Shown: piece after piece, positions 1 through 11,821 of the stretch
Numbering within the stretch: position 1 is the first letter of the stretch
Layout: every line of letters starts with the position of its first letter
The notes under the pieces: generated by a model
Seen by the model: only the letters and a program-made list of their open reading frames with translations
The model's database searches: none
What the model was told of the DNA's origin: nothing
Program-made: the position numbers and the translations under genes
NCBI GenBank assembly: GCA_048633705.1
Contig: JAIWBS010000009.1
Location: forward strand, 1 to 12,176
Direction: 5' to 3'
DNA from: Pirellulales bacterium
Lineage (GTDB): Bacteria; Patescibacteriota; Patescibacteriia; JBDRGY01
DNA: 12,176 nt

Positions 1-1
1 C

Positions 2-793
2 CCCTCTGATATAAAAGAGAATTTCAGCAAAGCAGGCACCAGTCATATTATTGCCATCTCGGGGATGCACATTACTATCATATCGGGCTTGATTCTCGGC
101 CTACTGATGGGCATTGGCTTTAATCGCAAGCAGGCATTTTTGGCAGCTACCATGATACTGCTAATTTATCTGTTTATAATCGGTTTTCCGGCCTCGGCAG
201 TCAGGGCAACCATTATGGGTTTTTTGGTAATGTGGGCAATGTATTTAGGCCGGCTAAATAATTCCCTGAACGCTCTTTTATTAACAGCTTCGATCATGCT
301 TTTGATAAATCCTAGACTGTTGAGGAATGATATTGGCTTTCAACTTTCTTTTGCCGCGGTTATCGGAATAATATATTTTAAACCACTTTTTGATAATCTA
401 TTCGCCAAACTGTCCAGTCGGTTCCAAATAAAAGAAGCAATTGCCATGACTTTAGCTGCTCAAATCACTACTTGGCCGCTGACAATTTATTATTTTGATA
501 AGTTTTCTCTAATTGCCCCAATTGCTAATGTTTTGATTGTGCCGGTTTTGCCCTTTGTCCTAATCTTAGGAATTATTGGAATAGGATTAGGATTTATTGT
601 ACCGTCCATGGCTCAGCTGGTTTTTTGGATTCTGTCTTTGTTGATCACTTATGTAATTAAAACAATTGAGGTATTGAGCACATTATCCTTTTCTTACCTA
701 AGGATTGAAGGATTTCAGCCGGTCTATATTCTGTTTGCTTATTGTCTAGTTTTTGGTTTACTATTTATAATAAGGAGAAGAAAATATGCCTAG
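2..793 (+). CDS. comEC: ComEC/Rec2 competence-domain polytopic membrane protein, 5'-truncated by the window edge
   Basis: The frame of the 65..793 ORF stays open back to nt 2, reading PSDIKENFSKAGTSHIIAISGMH. The 'SHIIAISGMH' stretch matches the classic ComEC competence-domain signature (HLLAISGLH-like). The rest is multi-helix hydrophobic, typical of the ComEC channel domain. A stop at 791-793 overlaps the next ORF's start. Confidence 0.75.
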   Translation, partial: PSDIKENFSKAGTSHIIAISGMHITIISGLILGLLMGIGFNRKQAFLAATMILLIYLFIIGFPASAVRATIMGFLVMWAMYLGRLNNSLNALLLTASIMLLINPRLLRNDIGFQLSFAAVIGIIYFKPLFDNLFAKLSSRFQIKEAIAMTLAAQITTWPLTIYYFDKFSLIAPIANVLIVPVLPFVLILGIIGIGLGFIVPSMAQLVFWILSLLITYVIKTIEVLSTLSFSYLRIEGFQPVYILFAYCLVFGLLFIIRRRKYA

Positions 794-1640
794 TCGCTAT
801 AAACTATTAATAATTATTGTTGTCCTTATGGCTGTTGGGGCAGGAGTTTTCTTTTGGCTTTATAGAGAAAGTCCCCAACAGCTGGAAGTAATTTTTATGG
901 ATATTGGCCAAGGTGATGCGATTTTGATTAAAACACCATACGACCAGCAAATATTAATTGATGGGGGACCAGACAATTCAATTCTCCAAAAATTGGGAGA
1001 ACATATGCCGTTTTGGGACAGGTCGATTGATTTGATGATACTAACTCATCCCCATTCAGATCACGTGGGCGGCTTAGTGGCAGTGTTGGATCGCTATGAA
1101 GTAGCCAATATTTTCTACACTGGAGTCAGTTGTCATTCGCCCGATTATTTGGCTTGGCTAGAAAAAATCGAAAAAAAAGGAATCCCCCTAAAGATTATGA
1201 AGATTGGGAACAAAATAACTTTGGGCGGTGATTTGGTTTTGGATACGCTATTTCCCTTCCAGGATTTGACCGATCAAGAAGTAGATGATTTAAATGGCAC
1301 CTCGATTGTCAACAGGCTGGTTTACGGCCAGCACAGTTTTCTATTAACCGGTGATTTGACTTCTGTGCAGGAAGAAGAAATTTTACAAAAGAGATTAATT
1401 ATTGAATCAGATGTTTTGAAAGTAGGGCATCATGGTTCAAAGTATTCTTCCTCGCCAGATTTTTTGGAGACAGTTGATCCACAATACGCGGTTATTCAAG
1501 TGGGCCAAGATAATAGGTTTGGCCATCCTCATCTTCTTACTATACAAAATCTAGAAAATGCAGATGCTGTGATTTTGCGCAATGACCGACAGGGTGACAT
1601 TAAATGTCAGTCGGATAAGGTTGTTTTATCTTGTTTTTAG
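786..1640 (+). CDS. comEC: ComEC-type metallo-beta-lactamase-fold domain protein with an N-terminal TM anchor, encoded as a separate ORF
   Basis: The 786..1640 ORF has an N-terminal TM helix (LLIIIVVLMAVGAGVFFWLY). It then shows 'IFMDIGQGDAILIK', an HxHxDH motif 'HPHSDHVGG' and 'VGHHGSKYSS', which together are characteristic of the ComEC C-terminal MBL domain. An SD-like AGGAGA lies 7 nt upstream of the ATG. The start overlaps the upstream stop in ATGCCTAG. Confidence 0.8.
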   Translation: MPSRYKLLIIIVVLMAVGAGVFFWLYRESPQQLEVIFMDIGQGDAILIKTPYDQQILIDGGPDNSILQKLGEHMPFWDRSIDLMILTHPHSDHVGGLVAVLDRYEVANIFYTGVSCHSPDYLAWLEKIEKKGIPLKIMKIGNKITLGGDLVLDTLFPFQDLTDQEVDDLNGTSIVNRLVYGQHSFLLTGDLTSVQEEEILQKRLIIESDVLKVGHHGSKYSSSPDFLETVDPQYAVIQVGQDNRFGHPHLLTIQNLENADAVILRNDRQGDIKCQSDKVVLSCF

Positions 1641-1644
1641 TTTG

Positions 1645-1653
1645 TGCTATAAT
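1645..1653 (+). promoter_or_regulatory. Extended -10 element TGcTATAAT, 9 nt upstream of the ATG at 1663, implying a leaderless or near-leaderless transcript
   Basis: TGCTATAAT sits at 1645-1653 and the ATG at 1663. There is no SD in between. Confidence 0.4.
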
Positions 1654-1662
1654 TTTTAGTAT

Positions 1663-2334
1663 ATGAAAGAAGATCAATCAGAACAAGCTATTCCCAAGCC
1701 GTGGTATTTTAAGCCCTGGGAGGTTTTGGTTTCTTTTTTATTGGTGATCGTTCTAGTTTGGTTGATTGGTTTGAATATGTGGTTATGGAATCCTGATCCT
1801 TTTCCTGAAGACAATGAGCAAGCAGCCAACCCTTTTGCTACTGACGTAGACGATGATCCCTCTTGGGGTCCGCTAAATTCCGGAATTACTATTATTTCTT
1901 TTCAGGATTTTACCTGTTCAGCTTGTGCCCAGGCTTACCAAGCCATGAAGCAGTTAAGGGAAAATTATCTGACCAAAATTCATTTTGTGTTTAGAGATTT
2001 TCCGATTATCGGGGCTAATTCAACCGTTGCCGCTATGGCAGCAGAATGTGCCGATGATCAGGGGAAATTTTGGGAAATGCACGATAAACTTTTTGAAAAT
2101 CAAGAAAGAATATCCAAAGAGTACGTCAAAGCTTTTGCTGCTCAGATCGGTTTAGATATGATGGATTTTAATGAATGTTACGATTCCAATAAATATCTCA
2201 ATGAGATTCGCAATGATTTCAATGAAGGATTGGCAGCCGGAGCTACTGCCACACCGACTTATTTTGTCAACGGCACCAGAGTTGAAGGTGCTTTTAGTTA
2301 TGATGTCTGGGCGGAGGTGATTGAGAGTATTTAG
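1663..2334 (+). CDS. Membrane-anchored DsbA/BdbD-family thiol-disulfide oxidoreductase (thioredoxin fold)
   Basis: The 1663..2334 ORF has an N-terminal TM helix (VLVSFLLVIVLVWLIGL). Its CxxC active site reads 'FTCSACAQ'. A cis-Pro loop 'ATPTYFVNG' and 'GKFWEMHDKLF' match the DsbA-like Thioredoxin_4 family. Confidence 0.8.
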   Translation: MKEDQSEQAIPKPWYFKPWEVLVSFLLVIVLVWLIGLNMWLWNPDPFPEDNEQAANPFATDVDDDPSWGPLNSGITIISFQDFTCSACAQAYQAMKQLRENYLTKIHFVFRDFPIIGANSTVAAMAAECADDQGKFWEMHDKLFENQERISKEYVKAFAAQIGLDMMDFNECYDSNKYLNEIRNDFNEGLAAGATATPTYFVNGTRVEGAFSYDVWAEVIESI

Positions 2335-2365
2335 CAGTAGTTACTCTTATTAATCTGTTTCGGGG

Positions 2366-2393
2366 TTGACATTTTTTTTAATTGTGTTAAGAT
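2366..2393 (+). promoter_or_regulatory. Sigma70-like promoter: -35 TTGACA, 16-nt spacer, extended -10 TGtTAAGAT
   Basis: TTGACA at 2366-2371, TG at 2385-2386, TAAGAT at 2388-2393. AAGGA lies 6 nt before the ATG at 2432. Confidence 0.4.
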
Positions 2394-2431
2394 TTGAAAA
2401 CAAGTTAAAAATTAATAAATAAAGGAAAAAT

Positions 2432-3205
2432 ATGGAAGACGAAAAAACACCAGAAAGTAAGGGGTTATTTAAGAATCAATCCAAATTAACCTTTATGTTG
2501 GGTTTATTTATAGGGATTGCCGTGGTATCCACTTTTGCTTTCTTTTTTACGCTAGTTGTTCTGCTTAATGATGGCGAAGAGAGTGGAAATGTGGCTTCTG
2601 CCGACGGAGCCGTGGCCGGTCAAGCTGACGCTGATCCCGGTCCAATACCAACAGACGGTACAGCACCGCAAGCTCAAGGTAATATCGAACTGATTGTTAC
2701 CATCGACGACAATACACCAATTCGGGGCAACAAAGATGCCAAAGTGACCTTAATTGAATTTTCTGATTTTGAATGTTCTTATTGTTCCAGGCATCAGGAA
2801 ACTTTGAAACAGATCGTGGATGAATTTCCCAATGATGTTAGATTGGTCTACAAGCACTTTCCTTTGTCATTCCACACCAATGCTCAGAAAGCAGCTGAAG
2901 CCTCAGAATGTGCCGGTGAGCAAGGTAAGTTTTGGGAAATGCATGACAAACTATACGAAGCAGCCGCTAACAAAGAATTGAGTGTAGAGAAATATAAAGA
3001 GTTGGCCAAAGATCTGGGTTTAAATACCGGTCAATTCGATTCCTGTCTGGATGACGGCACCTACGCTTCCAAAGTCCAATCAGATATGCAGGAAGGGATT
3101 GCGGCTGGCGTAGAAGGTACTCCTGGTACCTTTATCAACGGTACTCTGATTTCCGGAGCAGTACCCTACGATTCTTTCGTAACGGTGATTCAAGGCGAAC
3201 TCTAA
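2432..3205 (+). CDS. Second membrane-anchored DsbA/BdbD-family thiol-disulfide oxidoreductase, a paralog of the upstream gene
   Basis: The 2432..3205 ORF has a TM helix, then a low-complexity Ala/Gly/Asp/Pro linker, then a thioredoxin domain. The CxxC reads 'FECSYCSRH'. 'GKFWEMHDKLY' and the cis-Pro loop 'GTPGTFINGTL' are clearly paralogous to ORF 1663..2334. Confidence 0.8.
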   Translation: MEDEKTPESKGLFKNQSKLTFMLGLFIGIAVVSTFAFFFTLVVLLNDGEESGNVASADGAVAGQADADPGPIPTDGTAPQAQGNIELIVTIDDNTPIRGNKDAKVTLIEFSDFECSYCSRHQETLKQIVDEFPNDVRLVYKHFPLSFHTNAQKAAEASECAGEQGKFWEMHDKLYEAAANKELSVEKYKELAKDLGLNTGQFDSCLDDGTYASKVQSDMQEGIAAGVEGTPGTFINGTLISGAVPYDSFVTVIQGEL

Positions 3206-3966
3206 TGCCCTGGTGGCAATTTACAGATATATCTATAGGACCCTTGACTATTCAAGTCTGGGGTCTTTTGGTTTCTTTAGCTTTTTTGGTCAGCATCATC
3301 GTTGCTTATTTTGAACTAAAAAGAAAAGAGCTGGATAGTAAGATTGTTCTGGACTTGGCGGTCTGGATTATTATCGGGGCGATAATCGGCAGCCGGCTTT
3401 TTTACGTGATAAACGAGTGGAGCAAGTTCCAAAATAATCTGGTTGATATTTTTAAAGTTTGGGAAGGGGGCATGGCTTTGTATGGAGGGGTGGCACTGGG
3501 AAGCTTGGCTGCTTGGCTTTTTATCAAGAAAAAGAAACTAAAATTTGGACCGTACGCCGATGCAGTGCTTTTTGTTTTACCCTTGGGCTTGTTTATCGGC
3601 CGGATCGGTTGTTTCATGATTCACGATCATCTAGGCACAGTAACTAGCTTTCCCTGGGGCATAGAATACCAAGGGGCATTGCGGCACGAAACCGCCATGT
3701 ATAGTATGATAGCTAACCTGATTATATTTTTCTGTTTATTCTATATCAGAAAAGCCAAATTCAATTTTACCGGGCTGGTTTCTTCGGTGTTTATGATTTG
3801 GTACGGGGTGACCCGGTTTATTATCGATATGTTCCGAGCCCAGGATTTACCGATGTCTGATCCCAGAATTGGAGGATTTACCCCCTCGCAGTATATTAGC
3901 GTTTTGTTGGTCGTATTGGGTGTTTGGTTGTTGGTGAGAAAAAGGAGATTAGAGATCGGTAATTAG
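3205..3966 (+). CDS. lgt: Prolipoprotein diacylglyceryl transferase
   Basis: The 3205..3966 ORF is a 7-TM protein. Its N-terminus 'GPLTIQVWGLLVSLAFLVS' resembles Lgt 'GPLSIHWYGLMY'. 'GGMALYGGVALG' is present. A divergent Lgt signature 'GRIGCFMIHDHLG' (compare GRxGNFxNxExxG) and the C-terminal 'YGVTRFIIDMFR' (compare E. coli YGxFRFIIEFFR) support the call. The ATG overlaps the upstream stop (TAATG). Confidence 0.85.
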   Translation: MPWWQFTDISIGPLTIQVWGLLVSLAFLVSIIVAYFELKRKELDSKIVLDLAVWIIIGAIIGSRLFYVINEWSKFQNNLVDIFKVWEGGMALYGGVALGSLAAWLFIKKKKLKFGPYADAVLFVLPLGLFIGRIGCFMIHDHLGTVTSFPWGIEYQGALRHETAMYSMIANLIIFFCLFYIRKAKFNFTGLVSSVFMIWYGVTRFIIDMFRAQDLPMSDPRIGGFTPSQYISVLLVVLGVWLLVRKRRLEIGN

Positions 3967-4074: not shown

Positions 4075-4207
4075 CACCCGTCATCCTAGGAGTATTGTCT
4101 CTTGGGACGATCTGTCCTTTTTAGGATGGAATATAGTGTACATTGACAAGTTCTGAGTGCTAAACAAGCAGTATAACCAATGGCCATCAAACACGGAGGT
4201 GATGAGA

Positions 4208-5632
4208 ATGTATTGGCCCATAGTGTGGATCTGTATCGTCGTTGCTGTCATCGTGCTGGCGGTTGTTTTTCACAAGAAGGTTATCGAGGCAATCACCAGA
4301 TCAGCTACTCAGGTGGCCAGAGAGATAGCCCACAAGACAGTGGATGCGCGCATCGACGAGCTGAAGCCGATTACTGAAGGAGAGGCTGAATCGTCTAGTC
4401 AGGGCGGTAACGCCACGCAAAGTCCGGTTTACGAGAGTGTACCGGACATCAAGATCCGAAAGAACAGCTGGTTACTCTTTCCACTGGTTATCCAGTTGAT
4501 AGCGGTTGTTGTCATCTGGTCGCTTACTAGCGGTTTCGGAGATTCCGGTTGGAGCTGGCAGGGTTTCGCCCAGGGTCTGGCTAAGGCCGGATTGCTGGAG
4601 CTCGGCCTGGCTCTTCTGATCAAGCCGCAGCGAGTCGAGCAGCGGAGAGCCCGAGGCATCGAGTTTCTGGGCCGTCCGGTAGCCATCGCTCTAGAAGGAC
4701 TGGTTTTCCTCTGGCGTTGGGAGAGACTAAGCACCAAGCTAGGTACTGCCGAAGATACCGACGGCAAGAAAGTAACCAGAGCGGTGCCTCATTTCGTGAC
4801 TTCTCGGATGGTTACCATAGACATGGAACCTGAGGATGTTCACGATGAGGACATGGTTCCCTTCAAGGTTCAGATGGCCATGAAGTATGAGGTAGTCTGG
4901 ACTGAACAGGGAATCGTAGCAGCTCTCTACGGTTTCGAAGGTGACATCGAGATGCATATTGACCAGTCACTGCGGTCGGCTCTGGCAGATTTTGCTGGCA
5001 GTAAGAAAGTCAAAGATGTTCCTAGTAGCCAGAAAGAGCTGGAAGCCAGTGTCGAAACGTACTTCAAGAAAGAGGCCCTCGATTTCGTTCATCGCTTCGG
5101 CTATAAGTTGAAACAGGCTGAGTACAAAGGCCTGACTAGTCGGTTCTCCGATGCTCTGGCGGCTGGACAAATCAAGAAAGCCCTGGCAGCTGGTGATATT
5201 GCGGAGGCTGAAGGTAAGAAGCGAGCTGCCATGAAGGGGACCGATGCCAGGGTCTACGACATCGAAGAGAGCGGTAAGGCAGAGGCCAAGCGTCGAAAGA
5301 TGCTGGCGAAAGCTGATGCCAAGCGGCTGGAGCAGGCTATCCTGCAGATGGCTGGTTCTAATACAGAATTGGCCCAGCTTTCAGCCGAGGATAGACGTCA
5401 TCTGGCTGAGCGGGCGGCTGATTACCTTGGCACGCTCGACTACAACGCGGCCATCAAGACAGGAGCAGCTGACGAGAGTACGGTCGTCTTTGCCTCCCAG
5501 AGAGTGCCTGGTGTTCAGTTGGACGAGGCAGCTCTGCGTAGTGTGGTTTACCGTGTCATGCACGAAACTCTACCCGGAGGCAACGAGGCTGAGAACGGAC
5601 CTGCTGCGGCTGGTGCTGCTGCCGGGCAGTAA
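4208..5632 (+). CDS. SPFH/band-7 (flotillin/YqiK-like) membrane protein with two N-terminal TM helices and an Ala/Glu/Lys-rich coiled-coil C-terminus, high-GC
   Basis: The ORF track starts this frame at GTG 4157. GGAGG at 4195-4199 is optimally spaced (8 nt) for ATG 4208, where 'MYWPIVWICIVVAVIVLAVVF' begins. The SPFH-like core reads 'IALEGLVFLWRWERLS...VPHFVTSRMVTIDMEPEDV...FKVQMAMKYEVV...LRSALADFAGSKKVKDV'. It is followed by EA/K-rich repeats 'AEAEGKKRAAMKGTDARVYDIEESGKAEAKRRKMLAKADAKRLEQA' that resemble flotillin coiled coils. GC is ~55-60% against ~37% in the flanks. Confidence 0.55.
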   Translation: MYWPIVWICIVVAVIVLAVVFHKKVIEAITRSATQVAREIAHKTVDARIDELKPITEGEAESSSQGGNATQSPVYESVPDIKIRKNSWLLFPLVIQLIAVVVIWSLTSGFGDSGWSWQGFAQGLAKAGLLELGLALLIKPQRVEQRRARGIEFLGRPVAIALEGLVFLWRWERLSTKLGTAEDTDGKKVTRAVPHFVTSRMVTIDMEPEDVHDEDMVPFKVQMAMKYEVVWTEQGIVAALYGFEGDIEMHIDQSLRSALADFAGSKKVKDVPSSQKELEASVETYFKKEALDFVHRFGYKLKQAEYKGLTSRFSDALAAGQIKKALAAGDIAEAEGKKRAAMKGTDARVYDIEESGKAEAKRRKMLAKADAKRLEQAILQMAGSNTELAQLSAEDRRHLAERAADYLGTLDYNAAIKTGAADESTVVFASQRVPGVQLDEAALRSVVYRVMHETLPGGNEAENGPAAAGAAAGQ

Positions 5633-5650
5633 GCCGGAAAGGAGGGCGCC

Positions 5651-6799
5651 ATGAAGGTTAAGTGGATTTGGATCGCGATGGCTGGCTTCCTGGCTCTCTG
5701 GCTTTTGTCCAACGTTGACTTCAGTCGGCCGGCTGAGACGGTGAAAGCTGAGGTTGGAGCAGTTCAGGGTCTCCAGTTTAACTGGCTCTGGGCGGTTATC
5801 GCTCTGATCGTGTTGATCGTAGTATTGGTCATTCTGGCCAAGAAAGGAATCCTGAAGAATACCGGGTTGCCGAGCAAACTGTTGCTAGCAATCTTGTTCC
5901 TGGTTATGGCTATCGGCATCTTAGTGGCTGTTATCAAGCCGGATCGGTTACTGTTGATGGCCAAAGGGGAACCAGTAATATTCTTCGTATGTCTGGGTTT
6001 GCTGATTGTGGGCATTGGGTTCTGGAAGTTGTCAGAGCTGAACTACCCAGTCTGGTTTGCTTTCGTTGCCTTGTTGCTAGTTCTGCCGATTGGTCTGGCA
6101 AGAACCAATCCAGATCGAACGCCGAGTCATGACGAGCTGGAAACCGTCTTCGAGCACGAATGTTACCCCATTACCGACCCTGAGCGTTTGGCCCAATTTC
6201 CCTCTGTAGTTCGGGCTTACGACGTTAAGGTCGGACTGATCGAGGGTGGTGTAGGTGTTAGTAAGATCACCTTCACTGCCGAGGATGAGGGGTACTGGTG
6301 CCTGCTACGCAATTGGCAGGGCTGGTGGTGTGTCGGTGACGAGAAGACAGGCCGTCCGGTGGTTGGTATTCAAGGAGAGCCATCCTGGGAGTACGGTGAC
6401 AACAGAATGTGTACTTCCCGGAAATGGAATGTCGGCGGCTTGATGTGTTGGATTGGTACGCCGTTTGCCTACGACATGCCGCGAAAAGGGCTCTATAGCC
6501 TCAAGCACAACCCTTACTGGGAGCCCAGTCATCCAGACTGTTTCTTGGTGGGAGGAGACAAGCTGTTTCCCATCTTAGCCAAGGACTGGCTGGAATGGCT
6601 GGGTACAGATGAGGGCAACATCGTACTCTGCGGCAACGAGTCTGAAAACGGCTACAATGATGGCAACAATCTAGGTTTTGTCTGGGGTGAGCTCTGGATT
6701 CTCAGAGAGCGCCCGGTAGAGAGCCAGTTGCTGCCGTTGTTGGAGAAGTCTCGTGGTCGTACGAGCACTCAGAACACATGTGGGGTTTCTCCCGCATGA
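5651..6799 (+). CDS. Polytopic membrane protein (~5 TM) with a ~230-aa C-terminal Cys- and Trp-rich domain of unknown function, high-GC
   Basis: The 5651..6799 ORF has GGAGGG 5 nt upstream of its ATG. Five hydrophobic helices occupy the first ~150 aa. The C-terminal domain holds 8 Cys and ~12 Trp (YWCLLRNWQGWWCVGD, MCWIGTPFAYD, HPDCFLVGG) and I recognise no family in it. Codon usage is GC-rich like the upstream gene. Confidence 0.6.
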   Translation: MKVKWIWIAMAGFLALWLLSNVDFSRPAETVKAEVGAVQGLQFNWLWAVIALIVLIVVLVILAKKGILKNTGLPSKLLLAILFLVMAIGILVAVIKPDRLLLMAKGEPVIFFVCLGLLIVGIGFWKLSELNYPVWFAFVALLLVLPIGLARTNPDRTPSHDELETVFEHECYPITDPERLAQFPSVVRAYDVKVGLIEGGVGVSKITFTAEDEGYWCLLRNWQGWWCVGDEKTGRPVVGIQGEPSWEYGDNRMCTSRKWNVGGLMCWIGTPFAYDMPRKGLYSLKHNPYWEPSHPDCFLVGGDKLFPILAKDWLEWLGTDEGNIVLCGNESENGYNDGNNLGFVWGELWILRERPVESQLLPLLEKSRGRTSTQNTCGVSPA

Positions 6800-6876: not shown

Positions 6877-8427
6877 ATGAAGGTAATTACCAAAAAGGAA
6901 TGGCTTTGGGTTTTGATTTTTGCCTGTTTGGTGATGTTGGTAACAGTGGTTCCTTATATTTATGGAATGTTAATCAAGCCGGACAATTTGTATTTTTCCG
7001 GGGTGCACCGCTTAAATTCTGGCGATACTTATTCTTATCTGGCTTGGATGCAGCAAGCCAGAGAAGGTAACTGGCTATTCAAGATATTATACACAACTGA
7101 AGCACAGCCCAGAGTGATTTTCTTGCCGTTTTTTCTGGTGATGGGTTGGTTGGCCCGATTGACCAATTTATCCAATATTGCCTTTTTTCATTTATCCCGG
7201 TTTATTTTAGGGATAATTTTTTTATTGGTGGCCTATAAATTTTTGGCTCTGTTTTTTAATGAAGTTAGAAAAAGGAAAATTGCTTTGGCTGTTTTGGCCT
7301 TGAGTTCTGGTTTGGGTTGGTTATTTGGCAATTACAGTTTATCGACTGATAAATTCATGACCGAGTCCATTACCTTTTTAAATCTTTATGAATCCCCTCT
7401 CAATTTAATTTCTTTAATATTGATACTTACAACTTTTTATTTTTTACTACGCTCTTTTAAGGAGAATCAAAAGAGATTTATTGGTTTTTCTGGTTTGTCT
7501 TTGTTATTTTTACATTTGATTCATCCTTTTGATTCTATAACCGTAATGATTACTGTGGTTTTTTTGATGACTTTTTTATTCCTTTACAGTCGAGATTTTT
7601 GGCCTAAATTGAAAACGGCTATTTTTGTTATTTTGATTAGCTTGCCAGGATTATTTATTACCATTTTCGCCTTTATCAAAAATCCGGCTTTGCATAGCTG
7701 GCACGAAGCTAATGTCAGACTTTCTCCTTCTTTCTGGGCTTATTTATCGGGTTACGGTTTGTTGATAGTACTGGCCTTGTTTAGTATCAAAAAGTTTTCA
7801 GTTAAAGAAGACAAATTCTCTTTGGTTATGGCTTGGTTGATTACCACTTTAATTTTGATTTGGCAACCTTTTCTTCATTTCCAAAGAAAGTTTGCTTTAG
7901 GGTTGCATATCCCCATTGTTATTTTGGCGGTGATCGGTCTTTTCGGGCTGGCCAAGAAATTTAAATTATCCCGCAAATTTGTTATTGGTTTAATTATTGT
8001 CTTATCCTTTACCAACATCAAGATAATGTTAAACGACACCTATTCTTTCGACTCCCTGACTGCTCCTTATTATTGGAACCAGGATTATATCACGGCGATC
8101 GAGTGGCTGGCGGATCAAGAAAAAGGAGTAGTTTTGACTAATCCTAGTATTTCTAATATTGTTCCGGGTTTATCTGGTCAGACAGTTTATTCAGGACATA
8201 CTGATCAAACTAAAGATAGAGAGCATAAAATTGAAGAATTCAAATGGTTTATCAGTAGTCAGGGGACAATCACTGCCAAAAGGCAATTCTTGAGCGATAA
8301 AGGCATTAATTATATTCTTTATTTGACTGATTTAGTTGACGAGGATTATGTTTTAGTTCATCAAGATGATTTGGGATTAGAGCAAATTTATTTCAATGAC
8401 AGCTGTGCAATTTTCGGTTATAATTAA
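6877..8427 (+). CDS. Polytopic membrane protein, putative GT-C-fold glycosyltransferase (PMT_2/ArnT-like), with a C-terminal extracytoplasmic domain
   Basis: The 6877..8427 ORF has ~11 predicted TM helices. The first loop motif 'SGDTYSYLAWMQQAREGNWLF' resembles the ArnT/PMT 'DExRYAEIAREMxxSGDWxxP' region. A ~150-aa soluble C-terminal domain follows. The call rests on motif and topology only. Confidence 0.45.
   Translation: MKVITKKEWLWVLIFACLVMLVTVVPYIYGMLIKPDNLYFSGVHRLNSGDTYSYLAWMQQAREGNWLFKILYTTEAQPRVIFLPFFLVMGWLARLTNLSNIAFFHLSRFILGIIFLLVAYKFLALFFNEVRKRKIALAVLALSSGLGWLFGNYSLSTDKFMTESITFLNLYESPLNLISLILILTTFYFLLRSFKENQKRFIGFSGLSLLFLHLIHPFDSITVMITVVFLMTFLFLYSRDFWPKLKTAIFVILISLPGLFITIFAFIKNPALHSWHEANVRLSPSFWAYLSGYGLLIVLALFSIKKFSVKEDKFSLVMAWLITTLILIWQPFLHFQRKFALGLHIPIVILAVIGLFGLAKKFKLSRKFVIGLIIVLSFTNIKIMLNDTYSFDSLTAPYYWNQDYITAIEWLADQEKGVVLTNPSISNIVPGLSGQTVYSGHTDQTKDREHKIEEFKWFISSQGTITAKRQFLSDKGINYILYLTDLVDEDYVLVHQDDLGLEQIYFNDSCAIFGYN
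8396..8424 (+). promoter_or_regulatory. Candidate promoter for the large surface-protein gene, embedded in the 3' end of the upstream CDS: -35 ATGACA, 17-nt spacer, -10 TATAAT
   Basis: ATGACA at 8396-8401 and TATAAT at 8419-8424. AAGG lies 4 nt before ATG 8462. Confidence 0.35.
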
Positions 8428-8461
8428 TAATATCCGATTTACCATTAATAATTTAAGGTTT

Positions 8462-11400
8462 ATGAAGAAAGTATTCAGTTTAATGGTCGTAATCGTCCTC
8501 ATAGGCGGTTTTTTTGTTCCAAAAAGTATAGTCCAAGCTACTTACGGTGATGTGACGACTTATCTCGGTCATATATATGGCGGCGATGGTGGTCCAGCCC
8601 TGGATGCCTATTTAGATTTTCCAGAGGACATTGCAGTGGATTCTTCAGGTAATTTTTTTGTGGCTGATACCTATAATAATGTTATCCGGAAAATTAATTC
8701 ATCAGGCACTATTTCCACTTTGGCCGGTACCGGTTCTAATGGTTTGACTAATGGTGTAGCTTTATCAGCTGAATTTTCTTTGCCCAGGGGAGTGGCCCTA
8801 GACGGATCCGGTAATGTTTATGTAGCGGATACGGGTAATAACGTTATTAGAAAAATATCAGGGGGAACAGTAACTACTTTAGTTAGCTCAGGTTTATCCG
8901 GGCCAGAGGGTTTGGTGGTTTACGGTTCAACCGTTTTCATCGCTGATACCGGCAATGATGCCATAAAAACAGTATCAACTTCTGGAGGCTCGGTGGCTAC
9001 TTTAGCCGGTTCGGGATTAAGTTCTCCCAAAAAAATTGACATCTCCAGTGGCGGTACACTTTTATACGTAGCTGATGCTGGTAGTTATCGAGTTTTGACT
9101 GTAGACACCGGAACCGGGGCAGTGGCTGTTTTAGCCGGCTCTGGAACCGAAGGATATCAAGAGGGAATTGGCACGGCAGCCAAGTTTCAAAACATCTGGG
9201 GGGTTACTCTTTACGATGGATATCTTTATGTAGCCGATGGGGATGGTTATGACGACTTGATCAGAAAGATTGACACTAGTACCGGCGAAACCAGTTTGTA
9301 CGCCGATGACAGTAATATGCTGTCAATCAATTTCGGTACCGGAATCAAAGTTTATGACGGATACATCTATTTATGCAATTCAGGGATCGGGACAATTCAT
9401 AAATTCAATTTACTGGACGATGGTGACAATGAACTATTTGCCGGTTATGAGCGATTTGGCTACCGCAATGGCACTAATCCGCTTTTTGGCCGGCCGCATG
9501 ATATGGTTATGACTAAAGACGGATCAACTTTTTATTTGGCTGATAATAATAAAATTAGAAAAATAGTTAAAGCGACTGGTAATACATCTTACATAACTGG
9601 CTCCTCGGTTGATAATTATCGAGAAGGTTTGCCAATGGGAGCCTCGGGTGGTATCGGAGTAGAGTCTCGCTTTAGTACCATTGCTTCTATTACTATTAAT
9701 AATGCCGGTACCTCCTTGTATCTAGTCGACCGTTGGAATAACCGTATTCGTAAAGTTGATTTATCTGATCCTGATTACCAAACATATCTGATTTCCGGGG
9801 CAGGACGAATAAACACCACTGGGCAGCAGACACACGGCTACCAAGAAGGGAAAAAATGTGTTTCGGTCAAAGATAAAGACGAGACATTTACCAAACAATC
9901 AGGTTGTGCCTATTTTGACAACCCCGCCGGAATTGTTATCTCTCCCGATAATAGCTATTTATATGTGGCTGATACCAATAATCAGCGAATTCGTAAGGTC
10001 AGTATTATCGACGGCCAGACTTCATTGGTAGCTGGCTCGGGTAGTGCTGCCTATAAAGATGGCACAGGATTGGCTGCCAGTTTTCACACACCTTATGGTA
10101 TAGCCATTGATCAATCTGGAGATTATTTATACGTGGCTGATCGGGATAATCACCGGATTAGAACAATTAATACCACGACCGGGGTGGTAACTACTTTGGC
10201 TGGCAACGGAACAGCTGGCTATCGAGACGCTATCGGTACGGATGCCGTATTTTCCTACCCAGAATATATTAAGATGGGAGCTGACGGTAATCTGTACGTG
10301 ACCGAAGTGGGTTCACACCGGATTCGAGTAGTAAATCCGATTACCGGCGACACCAGATTGGTAGCAGGTTCAGGCGATCGGGGTTTTGCTAACGGGGCCA
10401 AGGAGGAAGCAGAGTTCAATAATTTGGAAGGAATTGCCCCAGATACCGCCAATGACACAGTTTACGTAATAGACTCCTGGAATGATTTGATTCGCCAGGT
10501 GGATATCACTGGCGAGATTCCTTATACTGAACCGGCTCCAACAGTAACCTCTGTTGATCCGGATTTTGTGGAACCCAAATGGGACGACGGTACTGGTTTG
10601 CGGGTGAGGATTTTAGGTACCAATTTCCGTCATGGAGCAATTACCCAGTTTTACAATTATCGGGCAGAGGAGACTTATGTAGTTTCCAGTACAGAATTAG
10701 TTGCCGAATTGCCACTGGATCAAATGGCAGCCGGTTATTATGATGTCAAAGTAACTAATTTGGATGGTCAGTCAGCCACCTTGTCCAAGGGAATCGGAAT
10801 TTCTGATAATCTGGGCAGTGTTCCGGACGAACACTTTGCTTTGCCGGGAACGGTAAGTAATGAGGAAATAACTGTAGCTGAGGGTACTAGTTTTTACGCT
10901 TATGCCGAATCAATTCGCGGTGGTTATTACGTGGCAGTTGGCAATGTGAGGGATGATAATCGGGAAGAAATTGTGACCGGAACCGGAGAAGGGCTGGGAC
11001 CTCAAGTTCGAGTATTTGATTTGGAAGGCAATGATAAAACTACATTTTTTGCATACGCAGAACATTTAAGGTCGGGTATCAGGGTAGCGGTGGGAGATTT
11101 AAACGGCGATGGCAGGAACGAAATAATTACCGCTCCTGGTCCGGGTGGTCGTCCCCATATCCAGACTTTTGACGGTGATGGTAATCGATTAAATCCCGGT
11201 TTTATGGCTTTGGACGGGCAGTTTTTAGGTGGAGCTTTTGTAGCCTGTGGAGATATTAATGGTGATGGTAAAGACGAAATTATTGTTACAGCAGGGCCGG
11301 GTGGAGGACCGCATGTTACTGTTCACAATGGTGATGGGGAATTGTTAGCTTCTTTCTTTGCTTATGATCAGCATACTTTCCGTTATGGCATCAGACCGGC

Positions 11401-11821
11401 AGTTTTGGATCTAGACGGCGATGGTAAGATGGAAATCCTAACCGGCCCGGCAACCGGTTCACCTCACATTCAGACTTTCCAAATCAGGCCTAATGAAATC
11501 CGACAGCTTAATCCGGGTTTTTACGCCTATGATCCTGACTACAAGGGAGGAGTGTCAGTAACGGGAGGTGATATAGATGGTGATGGAGAGGATGAAATAA
11601 TAACCGGAGTAGGTGATCAAGCCACTCCTCTGGTTAGGGTATTTGATAATGACGGTTCTGGTCTTATCCGCCAAGAATTTTACGCCTATAACACTTCTTT
11701 TCTATCAGGAGTCAATGTTGCCTCCGGTGATGTAGACGGGGATGATATTGATGAAGTGGTTATGTCGCCTATGGCTGACGGAGGACCACAGATCAGGATA
11801 ATTGAAGTGGATAGATTATAG
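8462..11821 (+). CDS. Large secreted/surface multi-domain protein: signal peptide, 12 NHL repeats (two predicted 6-bladed beta-propellers), an IPT/TIG Ig-like domain, and 6 FG-GAP-like Ca-binding repeats
   Basis: This is the 8396..11821 ORF. ATG 8462 begins a signal peptide 'MKKVFSLMVVIVLIGGFFVPKSIVQA|TY'. There are twelve 'YVADxxNxRIRKI'-type NHL blades. The TIG-like segment is 'PTVTSVDPDF...YDVKVTNLDGQS'. Six ~51-aa repeats read 'F(Y)AY...GDxDGDGxxEIIT..G....P.v.vF'. No C-terminal anchor or LPXTG motif is present. Confidence 0.8.
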   Translation: MKKVFSLMVVIVLIGGFFVPKSIVQATYGDVTTYLGHIYGGDGGPALDAYLDFPEDIAVDSSGNFFVADTYNNVIRKINSSGTISTLAGTGSNGLTNGVALSAEFSLPRGVALDGSGNVYVADTGNNVIRKISGGTVTTLVSSGLSGPEGLVVYGSTVFIADTGNDAIKTVSTSGGSVATLAGSGLSSPKKIDISSGGTLLYVADAGSYRVLTVDTGTGAVAVLAGSGTEGYQEGIGTAAKFQNIWGVTLYDGYLYVADGDGYDDLIRKIDTSTGETSLYADDSNMLSINFGTGIKVYDGYIYLCNSGIGTIHKFNLLDDGDNELFAGYERFGYRNGTNPLFGRPHDMVMTKDGSTFYLADNNKIRKIVKATGNTSYITGSSVDNYREGLPMGASGGIGVESRFSTIASITINNAGTSLYLVDRWNNRIRKVDLSDPDYQTYLISGAGRINTTGQQTHGYQEGKKCVSVKDKDETFTKQSGCAYFDNPAGIVISPDNSYLYVADTNNQRIRKVSIIDGQTSLVAGSGSAAYKDGTGLAASFHTPYGIAIDQSGDYLYVADRDNHRIRTINTTTGVVTTLAGNGTAGYRDAIGTDAVFSYPEYIKMGADGNLYVTEVGSHRIRVVNPITGDTRLVAGSGDRGFANGAKEEAEFNNLEGIAPDTANDTVYVIDSWNDLIRQVDITGEIPYTEPAPTVTSVDPDFVEPKWDDGTGLRVRILGTNFRHGAITQFYNYRAEETYVVSSTELVAELPLDQMAAGYYDVKVTNLDGQSATLSKGIGISDNLGSVPDEHFALPGTVSNEEITVAEGTSFYAYAESIRGGYYVAVGNVRDDNREEIVTGTGEGLGPQVRVFDLEGNDKTTFFAYAEHLRSGIRVAVGDLNGDGRNEIITAPGPGGRPHIQTFDGDGNRLNPGFMALDGQFLGGAFVACGDINGDGKDEIIVTAGPGGGPHVTVHNGDGELLASFFAYDQHTFRYGIRPAVLDLDGDGKMEILTGPATGSPHIQTFQIRPNEIRQLNPGFYAYDPDYKGGVSVTGGDIDGDGEDEIITGVGDQATPLVRVFDNDGSGLIRQEFYAYNTSFLSGVNVASGDVDGDDIDEVVMSPMADGGPQIRIIEVDRL
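8540..10510 (+). repeat. Intragenic array of 12 NHL repeats (protein-level tandem repeats)
   Basis: Recurring motifs include VADTYNNVIRKIN, VADTGNNVIRKIS, IADTGNDAIKTVS, VADAGSYRVLTVD, LIRKID, LADNNKIRKIVK, LVDRWNNRIRKVD, VADTNNQRIRKVS, VADRDNHRIRTIN, VTEVGSHRIRVVN and VIDSWNDLIRQVD. Confidence 0.7.
10889..11818 (+). repeat. Intragenic array of 6 FG-GAP/integrin-alpha-like repeats with DxDGDGxxE calcium-binding loops, period ~150-165 nt
   Basis: Repeat starts are at ~10892, 11044, 11200, 11353, 11518 and 11668 (FYAYAE, FFAYAE, FMALDG, FFAYDQ, FYAYDP, FYAYNT). Each is followed by GDLNGDGRNEIITAPGPGGRPHIQTF-type segments. Confidence 0.65.

What the first reader, a model, noticed from the sequence alone, without database searches (positions are those of the whole stretch)
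1663..3966. Competence-linked oxidative-folding block: comEC followed by two BdbD-like DsbA paralogs and lgt, with no DsbB/VKOR partner in view
Established knowledge: in Bacillus subtilis the thiol-disulfide oxidoreductases BdbD/BdbC are required for competence, because ComEC and the ComGC pilin need disulfide bonds. Here two membrane-anchored DsbA-family proteins sit directly downstream of comEC in the same orientation. lgt follows, translationally coupled by a TAATG overlap, which links disulfide formation and lipoprotein maturation of exported proteins. Both DsbA paralogs have proline-less CxxC dipeptides (CSAC and CSYC, not the usual CPHC/CPSC), which would tune redox potential. No DsbB- or VKOR-like reoxidase is visible in this window.
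Basis: partly seen in the sequence, partly recalled or inferred. Interest (0 to 1): 0.5.

Follow-up and report, generated by a model that had tools for sequence, protein, structure and literature searches.

The report
Two DsbA paralogs beside lgt
This is an ordinary cell-envelope gene cluster of an uncultivated Patescibacteria bacterium: two old, membrane-anchored disulfide-bond enzymes followed by the lipoprotein enzyme Lgt, sitting next to the DNA-uptake gene comEC only in this narrow lineage and not as a dedicated competence module.

Summary
Positions 1663-3966 encode two signal-anchored DsbA-family proteins (CSAC, CSYC) and lgt, joined by a TAATG overlap. They lie downstream of comEC, and the window holds no DsbB or VKOR.

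The "competence-linked" reading is only weakly supported.
- comEC/MBL lies next to dsbA only in close relatives. None of about 160 more distant DsbA loci shows it.
- dsbA1 and dsbA2-lgt each have their own conserved promoter-like element.
- The ComEC channel protein has no extracytoplasmic cysteine pair.

The recurrent unit is dsbA-dsbA-lgt. It appears in other Patescibacteria with unrelated upstream genes. The two paralogs are ancient, separate clades (38% identical; never sisters in 100 bootstraps). In relatives an ABC transporter separates them, and the window has lost it.

This enzyme family, its enrichment in Patescibacteria (CPR) and its usual VKOR partner were already described (Méheust 2019). 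There VKOR was adjacent in only 88 of 750 genomes, so a missing neighbour is unremarkable.

Smaller new points:
- The active sites are plastic. A 93%-identical relative has CPYS instead of CSYC.
- The ComEC nuclease domain is a separate gene with a perfectly covarying cysteine pair.
- dsbA-lgt adjacency is statistically enriched.

The parts
1..793 (+). 3' part of the comEC channel gene (DUF4131 + Competence domains). It runs off the left end of the window and is 418 aa as called in the identical NCBI contig L001.
   Evidence: Pfam Competence 5e-48 and TIGR00360. The full gene is seen in L001. It has only one Cys, which lies in a TM segment.
786..1640 (+). Separate gene for the ComEC metallo-beta-lactamase (nuclease) subunit. 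It has its own N-terminal TM anchor, an HPHSDH motif and a C-terminal hairpin Cys pair C274/C283. It overlaps the channel gene by 8 nt (ATGCCTAG).
   Evidence: Lactamase_B 1e-16 and TIGR00361 C-terminal half 1.5e-33. The AF2 model has pLDDT 95.9, and its best PDB match is the ComEC MBL domain 9IC4 (E 5e-28, TM 0.80/0.85). The split is conserved in L163 (52-nt gap), L166 (a GIY-YIG gene in between), L176 and L178. Cys274 and Cys283 covary: 13 sequences have both, 140 neither, 0 only one. They sit in register on adjacent strands E272-276 and E281-283.
1645..1653 (+). Extended -10 promoter-like element TGcTATAAT, 9 nt before the dsbA1 ATG, with no Shine-Dalgarno sequence. The dsbA1 mRNA is probably leaderless or nearly so.
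   Evidence: TTTGTGnTATAAT is invariant in window, L163, L166 and L083, at 6-9 nt from the ATG. A promoter function is inferred and not shown.
1663..2334 (+). dsbA1: a signal-anchored DsbA-family thiol-disulfide oxidoreductase with active site CSAC (C85/C88), a cis-Pro loop T197-P198 and a second Cys pair C129/C172.
   Evidence: Pfam. AF2 pLDDT 89.9 with a DsbA fold. Foldseek hits to Wolbachia alpha-DsbA2, BdbD and C. diphtheriae DsbA/TsdA. The narrow orthologue clade has 100/100 bootstrap support.
2366..2393 (+). Sigma-70-type promoter-like site for dsbA2-lgt: TTGACA, 16 nt, TG-extended TAAGAT. The AAGGA Shine-Dalgarno is at 2422-2426.
   Evidence: Found by the scan. The -35 and extended -10 are conserved in L163, L166 and L105. 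The spacer is 97% identical in L179.
2432..3205 (+). dsbA2: a signal-anchored DsbA-family protein on a ~50-aa Ala/Gly/Pro-rich tether. Active site CSYC (C115/C118), cis-Pro loop T-P, second Cys pair C160/C205.
   Evidence: Pfam. PDB sequence hits to C. diphtheriae DsbA 4PWP (7.6e-18), ScsC and BdbD. It belongs to a large Patescibacteria clade (6914 homologues at E<=1e-5). Clade bootstrap is 99/100.
3205..3966 (+). lgt, prolipoprotein diacylglyceryl transferase, translationally coupled to dsbA2 by TAATG at 3203-3207.
   Evidence: PF01790 3e-58 and TIGR00544 above its cutoff. The overlap is read directly from the sequence. The same coupling is seen in L179, L163, L166, L105 and L154.

Best explanation
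The region is a housekeeping envelope-biogenesis stretch of a Patescibacteria (CPR) genome. DsbA1 and DsbA2 are two anciently diverged members of the CPR-enriched, membrane-anchored BdbD/MdbA-type DsbA family. Their catalytic domains face outward from the cytoplasmic membrane. There they exchange disulfides with cysteine pairs of exported proteins.

Likely substrates in and near the window are:
- the C274/C283 hairpin of the exported ComEC nuclease subunit;
- the 8-Cys C-terminal domain of orf382;
- the giant NHL/FG-GAP surface protein;
- type IV pilins encoded elsewhere;
- the second disulfide of the DsbAs themselves.

dsbA1 is expressed from its own, probably leaderless, promoter. dsbA2 and lgt form a separate, translationally coupled unit. 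DsbA1 keeps both catalytic cysteines in every orthologue and is the likelier constitutive oxidase. DsbA2 tolerates loss of the resolving cysteine in sister lineages (CPYS), so it may act more as an isomerase or mixed-disulfide partner.

Reoxidation is most likely by a VKOR homologue encoded elsewhere in the genome. Failing that, it would be by ambient oxidants, as for partner-less Gram-positive DsbAs. The adjacency to comEC is synteny specific to this clade and not a functional module.

What is shown: gene identities, folds, synteny, conservation of motifs and of promoter-like elements. What is inferred: oxidase activity, the substrates, the division of labour between the paralogs, and the reoxidant.
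For: - Family and fold.
- The family, its enrichment in Patescibacteria, its MdbA similarity, CxxC retained in 89% of members, and VKOR adjacent in 88 of 750 genomes are all already described (PMC6744442).
- VKOR genes directly beside DsbA genes were found here in an Andersenbacteria locus and a Nanoarchaeota locus, with a fusion in L082.
- Clade synteny is glmS-comEC-MBL-dsbA1-ABC-ABC2-dsbA2-lgt. The window and its 93-99% identical relative L179 have lost the ABC pair.
- The dsbA-dsbA-lgt trio occurs with other upstream genes in L105/L121 and L154. The first gene is nearer the A1 side and the second nearer A2.
- The paralogs are 38% identical. The clades score 100/100 and 99/100 and are sisters in 0/100 bootstraps.
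- Promoter-like elements are conserved.
- lgt lies next to dsbA in 4 independent lineages out of 94 loci with adequate flanks. Binomial P<=3e-4 even for a 600-gene genome.
- Cys-pair covariation and hairpin register in the MBL subunit. An extracellular location of the ComEC MBL domain is published (PMC8579336).
Against: - No reoxidase was found in the window or within +-10 kb in relatives, so the electron sink is unknown.
- comEC/MBL-dsbA1 adjacency is kept across four lineages down to ~55-60% protein identity. That is more than random drift would necessarily preserve.
- No terminator separates MBL from dsbA1, so read-through co-transcription is possible.
- CSAC and CSYC differ from the family norm, so the redox properties may not be those of a typical oxidase.
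- No biochemical or expression data exist.
Confidence: 0.7

Rival explanations
1. One reading: a dedicated competence-linked oxidative-folding module. DsbA1, and perhaps DsbA2, exist mainly to oxidise ComEC or pilin components, as BdbDC does in B. subtilis, and are co-expressed with comEC.
For: - BdbDC introduce disulfides into ComGC and ComEC (PMC8262900).
- dsbA1 follows the ComEC nuclease gene by 12-22 nt in window, L179, L083, L163 and L166.
- That nuclease subunit has a conserved, perfectly covarying Cys pair in this clade.
- No terminator-like site lies between MBL and dsbA1.
Against: - The adjacency is absent outside the clade.
- It is also absent beside Cys-pair MBL homologues in L176 and L178.
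- dsbA1 has its own conserved promoter-like element.
- The ComEC channel protein has no extracytoplasmic Cys pair; L166 has zero Cys.
- 58 of 135 stand-alone MBL homologues have no Cys at all.
- In relatives dsbA1 is followed by ABC transporter genes, and dsbA2-lgt forms a separate unit.
Confidence: 0.12
2. DsbA2 is functionally coupled to Lgt and is not a general oxidase. It handles the lipobox cysteine of prolipoproteins, either keeping it reduced or holding it as a mixed disulfide, so that Lgt can lipidate it in an oxidising compartment. Only the nucleophilic first cysteine would be needed.
For: - The dsbA2 stop and lgt start overlap or abut in window, L179, L163 and L166. They lie 4-10 nt apart in L105 and L154.
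- dsbA-lgt adjacency is enriched.
- The resolving Cys is replaced by Ser (CPYS, codon AGT) in L179/P0001, L163/P0003 and P0013. These genes stay intact and remain coupled to lgt.
- 7 of the 17 amino-acid differences between window and L179 DsbA2 fall in residues 116-134, around the active-site helix.
Against: - I know of no precedent for such a role, and no paper found here links DsbA to lipobox handling.
- lgt is adjacent in only ~5% of DsbA loci.
- Most lgt-adjacent DsbAs have canonical CPFC or CPYC.
- In L154 the lgt-proximal DsbA is itself a lipoprotein, so adjacency could simply reflect an enzyme-substrate or shared envelope-operon logic.
Confidence: 0.1
3. dsbA1 belongs with the ABC-2 exporter that follows it in relatives, as an export-plus-oxidation module for a secreted disulfide-containing product. 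This would be analogous to bdbA/bdbB beside the sublancin transporter in B. subtilis. The window retains only an orphaned dsbA1.
For: dsbA1 is followed after ~40 nt by an ABC ATPase and an ABC-2 permease in L163, L166/L167 and L083. The bdbAB/sunT analogy is from my own knowledge.
Against: - The window and L179 lost the transporter yet keep dsbA1 at 98% aa identity with an intact CSAC.
- More distant trios (L105, L154) lack the ABC genes.
- The transporter is of the DrrA/ABC-2 type, with no peptidase or bacteriocin hallmarks.
- No candidate Cys-rich peptide gene was seen.
Confidence: 0.05

Closest known systems
CPR-enriched MdbA-like thiol-disulfide oxidoreductase family fam000318 with VKOR (Méheust et al. 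2019, PMC6744442); MdbA/VKOR of Actinomyces oris and Corynebacterium diphtheriae
   Same: - Membrane-anchored DsbA-fold protein on the outer face of a monoderm-type envelope.
- Found in Patescibacteria.
- Sequence and fold hits to C. diphtheriae DsbA/TsdA and A. oris MdbA.
- CxxC usually but not always retained, and VKOR usually not adjacent.
   Different: - No VKOR in view here.
- Dipeptides are CSAC/CSYC, against CPHC/CPFC-type.
- The BdbD-type metal-site residues are present here but absent in MdbA.
- Two ancient paralogs are arranged with lgt.
BdbD/BdbC of Bacillus subtilis
   Same: - N-terminal TM anchor and DsbA fold (3EU3: TM 0.76, rmsd 2.3).
- A T-cisPro loop.
- Residues aligning to the E115 and D180 Ca2+ ligands are invariant, and Q49 aligns to Asp in the DsbA1 clade.
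- BdbD serves competence proteins (PMC8262900).
   Different: - BdbD has CPSC and sits in an operon with its DsbB-type partner BdbC; no such gene is here.
- Only ~24% identical.
- The ComEC channel here has no disulfide pair.
- These proteins have an extra helical-domain Cys pair that BdbD lacks.
Wolbachia alpha-DsbA1/alpha-DsbA2 and Staphylococcus aureus DsbA
   Same: - Top structural neighbours (6EEZ, 3F4R, 3BCI).
- alpha-DsbA1 also has a second, non-catalytic disulfide (the PDB entry 3F4T is a C97A/C146A mutant) and a proline-less CxxC (from my own knowledge).
- S. aureus DsbA works without any DsbB or VKOR (from my own knowledge).
   Different: These are proteobacterial periplasmic proteins or a staphylococcal lipoprotein. 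The window proteins are signal-anchored and not lipoproteins. Sequence identity is only 21-26%.
Three-domain ComEC (DUF4131-Competence-MBL) of B. subtilis / Moorella glycerini
   Same: All three domains are present. The MBL part matches the M. glycerini ComEC nuclease domain crystal structure 9IC4 (E 5e-28) and keeps an HxHxDH motif.
   Different: Here the nuclease domain is a separate gene with its own TM anchor. This agrees with the report that the fusion is essentially absent in Patescibacteria (PMC6744442). It also carries a lineage-specific C-terminal Cys pair.

Membership tests
DsbA family (Pfam PF01323 / PF13462 Thioredoxin_4) | Thioredoxin fold with an inserted alpha-helical domain | tested here: met
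   The AF2 model of DsbA1 (pLDDT 89.9) shows beta-alpha-beta, then five helices, then beta-beta-alpha. 192 PDB matches at E<=0.001; the best 50 listed are almost all DsbA-family proteins. Pfam hits for both proteins exceed the cutoffs. DsbA2 was not modelled; its membership rests on Pfam and PDB sequence hits.
DsbA family (Pfam PF01323 / PF13462 Thioredoxin_4) | CxxC at the N-terminus of helix alpha1, and a cis-Pro loop | tested here: met
   C85/C88 sit at the start of helix 86-102, with C115/C118 the equivalent in DsbA2. C85 and T197 are invariant, and C88 and P198 nearly invariant, across 49 homologues. The cis conformation itself was not checked.
DsbA family (Pfam PF01323 / PF13462 Thioredoxin_4) | Extracytoplasmic location | tested here: met
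   A single N-terminal hydrophobic helix (residues 18-42 in the model) is followed by the catalytic domain, with no other TM segment. This is prediction only.
DsbA family (Pfam PF01323 / PF13462 Thioredoxin_4) | Oxidising redox potential / oxidase activity | not testable with these tools
   Needs purified protein. The CSAC and CSYC dipeptides differ from the CPFC/CPYC norm, which accounts for ~93% of the family.
BdbD-type (B. subtilis BdbDC system) | Ca2+ site formed by Gln49, Glu115 and Asp180 (PMC2749146) | tested here: inconclusive
   By MAFFT alignment, the DsbA1 clade has D/E/D and the DsbA2 clade T,S,A/E/D at these positions; MdbA has -/R/A. Ligand-compatible residues are present in DsbA1, but metal binding was not tested.
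BdbD-type (B. subtilis BdbDC system) | Adjacent DsbB-family partner gene (bdbC) in one operon | tested here: not met
   No DsbB Pfam hit and no multi-TM ORF with CxxC in the window. None found within +-10 kb in L166 either.
BdbD-type (B. subtilis BdbDC system) | Needed for competence through disulfides in ComEC/ComGC | tested here: inconclusive
   The ComEC channel protein lacks any extracytoplasmic Cys pair. The separate MBL subunit has a covarying C274/C283 pair. Pilins are not in the window. No functional test was possible.
MdbA/VKOR system (Actinobacteria; CPR fam000318 + fam000898) | VKOR homologue that reoxidises the DsbA-like protein | not testable with these tools
   Absent from the window and from the flanks of relatives. 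The rest of the genome (GCA_030617445.1) could not be searched. VKOR lies beside DsbA in other Patescibacteria/DPANN loci (L069, L061).
ComEC/Rec2 | Competence (PF03772) channel domain with DUF4131 OB-fold and an MBL nuclease domain | tested here: met
   All three domains are present but on two polypeptides. The MBL fold matches ComEC 9IC4, and an HPHSDH motif is present.
Lgt (prolipoprotein diacylglyceryl transferase) | Full-length match to the equivalog model | tested here: met
   TIGR00544 at 133.3 bits against a cutoff of 118.9, and PF01790 at 197 bits covering positions 4-239 of 240.
DsbB / VKOR reoxidases | 4-5 TM protein with a CxxC plus a second loop Cys pair | tested here: not met
   No window ORF of >=50 aa in any frame has two or more TM segments together with a CxxC. 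There are no VKOR HMM hits. orf382 (5 TM) has one membrane Cys, and orf516 (10 TM) has 2 Cys in all.

The most novel reading that the evidence does not exclude
The conserved, translationally coupled dsbA2-lgt pair reflects a real functional partnership. DsbA2, whose resolving cysteine is dispensable in sister lineages (CPYS), would act on the lipobox cysteine of prolipoproteins. It would protect or present that cysteine for Lgt in an oxidising extracytoplasmic space, while DsbA1 is the general oxidase. This would be a previously undescribed link between disulfide management and lipoprotein maturation.
Probability: 0.1. Interest if true: 0.6.

Novelty: new member of a known kind. Interest (0 to 1): 0.3.

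Why it matters
As it stands, little changes. The finding adds a well-documented example to a known, CPR-enriched family of extracytoplasmic disulfide enzymes, and it shows that the apparent competence link is local synteny.

The by-products are more useful.
1. ComEC proteins of Patescibacteria that "lack" the nuclease domain can have it as a separate, anchored gene nearby. It lies next to the channel gene in the window clade and in L176, and two genes away in L178. This bears on the open question of how ComECs lacking the nuclease domain degrade the non-transforming strand (PMC8579336).
2. A perfectly covarying Cys pair in that subunit is independent sequence evidence that the nuclease domain folds outside the cytoplasm.
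3. Active-site toggling (CSYC, CPYS, CPYC) between near-identical strains, together with the enriched dsbA-lgt coupling, gives a concrete and testable lead on specialised roles for DsbA paralogs in organisms with minimal envelopes.

Tried and rejected
I judged this too insensitive and replaced it with HMMs built from VKORs confirmed by Pfam.
- An unbiased neighbour clustering around 160 DsbA loci gave ABC ATPases, Cu P-type ATPases, cupredoxin-like proteins, Lgt and thioredoxin reductase. No comEC appeared.
- Exact look-up of orf516 found no record.
- Rfam, tRNA and PADLOC scans of the window were negative or insignificant.
- The idea that the two dsbA genes are a recent tandem duplication is rejected. 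They are 38% identical, form separate clades, and are never sisters in 100 bootstraps.
- The idea that the comEC split is a frameshift artefact is rejected. It is conserved, with a gap or an inserted gene in relatives, and stand-alone TM+MBL proteins make up 135 of the top 150 representatives.
- The idea that the unannotated membrane CxxC family 'X' is the missing partner here is not supported. It is absent from the window and from close relatives, and it sits in copper-resistance contexts.


Full report
**What is there.** The 12.2-kb window carries only + strand genes:
- the 3' part of a comEC channel gene (to 793);
- a separate metallo-beta-lactamase (MBL) gene (786-1640);
- dsbA1 (1663-2334);
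- dsbA2 (2432-3205);
- lgt (3205-3966);
- an SPFH-like gene (4157-5632);
- a 5-TM, Cys-rich orf382 (5651-6799);
- a 10-TM orf516 (6877-8427);
- a 1141-aa NHL/FG-GAP protein (8396-11821).

The same DNA occurs in the NCBI MAG GCA_030617445.1 (L001). Homologues are overwhelmingly from Patescibacteria and DPANN archaea.

The motifs CSAC and CSYC, the single N-terminal anchors without a lipobox, and the TAATG overlap at 3203-3207 are all as described. The window has no DsbB or VKOR by Pfam, none by a VKOR HMM built from Pfam-confirmed examples, and none by a scan for multi-TM ORFs with CxxC. comEC is split, and the gene touching dsbA1 is its nuclease subunit.

**What the DsbA proteins are.** The AlphaFold model of DsbA1 (pLDDT 89.9) has the DsbA architecture, with C85/C88 at the start of helix alpha1. 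Its nearest solved structures are Wolbachia alpha-DsbA2, B. subtilis BdbD, C. diphtheriae DsbA/TsdA, a Silicibacter oxidoreductase, Wolbachia alpha-DsbA1, ScsC proteins and S. aureus DsbA. Sequence searches give the same set.

The BdbD Ca2+ ligands are Gln49, Glu115 and Asp180 (PMC2749146). They align with D/E/D in the DsbA1 clade and with T,S,A/E/D in the DsbA2 clade. MdbA lacks them. "BdbD-like" is therefore fair at fold and site level, but the defining bdbC partner is missing.

Both proteins also have a second Cys pair in the helical domain, a feature shared with most family members.

**This family is already described.** Méheust et al. 2019 (PMC6744442) reported the following:
- a thiol-disulfide oxidoreductase family enriched in Patescibacteria (CPR);
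- similarity to membrane-bound MdbA;
- CxxC kept in 89% of members;
- a proposed role in folding pilins;
- VKOR as a frequent neighbour, but adjacent in only 88 of 750 genomes that have both families.

The missing neighbour is therefore expected. I did find VKOR directly beside DsbA genes in an Andersenbacteria locus and a Nanoarchaeota locus, and fused to DsbA in another.

**Paralogy.** DsbA1 and DsbA2 are 38% identical. DsbA1 belongs to a small orthologue group: six clusters at 55-64% identity, then a drop to 40%. DsbA2 belongs to a very large Patescibacteria clade. In NJ trees the two clades have 100/100 and 99/100 bootstrap support and are never sisters (0/100). This is not a recent duplication.

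**Synteny.** Close relatives share this order (L163, L166, L083, L179):

glmS - comEC - MBL - dsbA1 - ABC ATPase - ABC-2 permease - dsbA2 - lgt - two GC-rich genes - NHL/FG-GAP giant.

The window and L179 have lost the ABC pair without trace. The direct juxtaposition of the two dsbA genes here is therefore secondary.

Two more distant Patescibacteria lineages have an A1-side dsbA, an A2-type dsbA and lgt in a row. Upstream they carry suf genes (L105/L121) or gatCA (L154) instead of comEC. In L154 a third, lipoprotein-type DsbA sits before lgt.

Counts among 160 DsbA-anchored loci, 94 of which have >=1 kb flanks:

| Neighbour of dsbA | Loci | Note |
|---|---|---|
| lgt directly adjacent | 5 (4 independent) | binomial P<=3e-4 |
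| comEC/MBL adjacent | 1 | the close relative L083 |

MBL homologues from other lineages that carry the same Cys pair have no dsbA beside them. The conserved core is therefore dsbA-dsbA-lgt, and the comEC link is specific to this clade.

**Expression signals.** TTTGTGnTATAAT is invariant in four lineages and lies 6-9 nt before the dsbA1 ATG. There is no Shine-Dalgarno sequence, which suggests a leaderless transcript. TTGACA-16/17-TGnTAnnnT precedes dsbA2 in window, L163, L166 and L105. These are consensus matches made credible by conservation; function has not been shown. No terminator separates MBL from dsbA1, so read-through cannot be excluded.

**Competence proteins and cysteines.** The ComEC channel/OB protein has one Cys in the window's genome, none in L166 and three in L163. 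All lie in hydrophobic segments. The B. subtilis rationale (PMC8262900) does not transfer to it.

The MBL gene is the genuine ComEC nuclease domain. Its best PDB match is the M. glycerini ComEC MBL structure 9IC4 (E 5e-28), and it has an HPHSDH motif. It carries its own N-in anchor, which places the domain outside, as published for ComEC (PMC8579336).

C274 and C283 covary perfectly across 153 sequences: 13 have both, 140 have neither, none has only one. Hydrophobic residues fill these positions in the rest. In the model the two Cys face each other in register on the C-terminal hairpin, strands 272-276 and 281-283. This is good indirect evidence for a disulfide, and so for a local DsbA substrate. 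However, 58 of 135 stand-alone homologues have no Cys at all, so it is a lineage-specific stabiliser and not a general requirement.

**Active-site plasticity.** About 93% of family members have CPFC or CPYC.

| Clade | Active-site motifs seen | Second Cys |
|---|---|---|
| DsbA1 orthologues | CSAC, CTAC, CLAC, CPAC, CPVC | always kept |
| DsbA2 clade | CSYC (window, P0002); CPYC (L166/P0009, P0010); CPYS (L179/P0001, L163/P0003, P0013) | lost in CPYS members |

L179 is 93% identical to the window in DsbA2 and 98% in DsbA1. Even so, it differs at both variable active-site positions (TCT/CCT and TGT/AGT). Seven of its 17 substitutions fall in residues 116-134. The CPYS genes are intact and still coupled to lgt.

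I infer that DsbA1 is the constitutive dithiol oxidase and that DsbA2 has a role which tolerates a monothiol site. This is inference only.

**Verdict.** The finding is real but ordinary. It is a new member of a described Patescibacteria DsbA/MdbA-like family, in an envelope-biogenesis neighbourhood. The competence interpretation is mostly not supported. The most novel reading still open is a functional DsbA2-Lgt partnership acting on the lipobox cysteine. I rate it at about 10%.

Noticed in passing
window 1-1640; L163 3100-5365; L166 7345-9980; L176; L178: comEC is split. The DUF4131+Competence channel and a ~285-aa TM-anchored MBL nuclease are separate genes. They overlap by 8 nt here, are separated by 52 nt in L163, by a GIY-YIG gene in L166 and by two genes in L178. 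Stand-alone TM+MBL proteins make up 135 of the top 150 cluster representatives. The ComEC papers I checked do not mention a separate gene; they note only that the fusion is absent in Patescibacteria.
   Followed up: partly
window 1605-1637 (MBL residues 274 and 283): The C-terminal hairpin Cys pair of the MBL subunit covaries perfectly (13 both, 140 neither, 0 single). In the AF2 model it sits in cross-strand register, which implies a disulfide in an extracytoplasmic nuclease domain.
   Followed up: yes
window 4157-6799; L166 14381-16933; L163 9781-12578: A two-gene cassette lies between lgt and the NHL/FG-GAP gene: an SPFH-like protein plus a multi-TM protein with a Cys-rich C-terminal domain. 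It is 53-56% GC against 38-47% in its flanks in all three lineages. The proteins are only 22-31% identical between window and L166, and undetectable by BLAST against L163. It may be a replaceable or fast-evolving GC-rich cassette. Unexplained.
   Followed up: partly
L006:8974-9576, L037:10517-11056, L051:10499-10930, L059:812-1411, L098:1990-2508, L140:880-1356, L170:4001-4558, L173:4001-4597, L175:4001-4585: An unannotated family of 118-199-aa proteins with 3-6 TM helices and a CxxC inside a TM helix (G-C-[AP]-[AS]-C). It has no Pfam hit, and 59 homologues are all 'hypothetical'. It lies immediately downstream of, and once upstream of, DsbA/ScsC-like genes in CPR, DPANN and proteobacterial MAGs. 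A second unknown ~190-aa gene followed it in all three looked-up loci (L170, L173, L175), and the surroundings in those three are copper or other metal-handling genes. It is a candidate membrane redox partner of ScsC-type DsbAs. It is not present in the window.
   Followed up: partly
window 2-3717 vs L179 424-4139: Nucleotide identity to the closest relative is mosaic: comEC 96%, MBL 88.5%, dsbA1 99.0%, spacer 97%, dsbA2 93.9%, lgt 91.6%. This suggests recombination between related strains.
   Followed up: no
L105 9767-12153; L154 7849-10815: Other Patescibacteria carry dsbA-dsbA-lgt trios behind suf or gatCA genes. In L154 a third DsbA with a lipobox (LLVGC) sits directly before lgt.
   Followed up: partly
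(e.g. P0004-P0008, L046, L062, L118): Many high-scoring homologues are 400-900-aa proteins with two or three tandem DsbA domains. They come from Myxococcota, Acidobacteriota and DPANN archaea.
   Followed up: no
window 8396-8461: The listed start of the NHL/FG-GAP ORF overlaps orf516 by 32 nt. A signal-peptide-like MKKVFSLMVVIVL begins 22 codons later (about 8462), so the real start is probably downstream.
   Followed up: no
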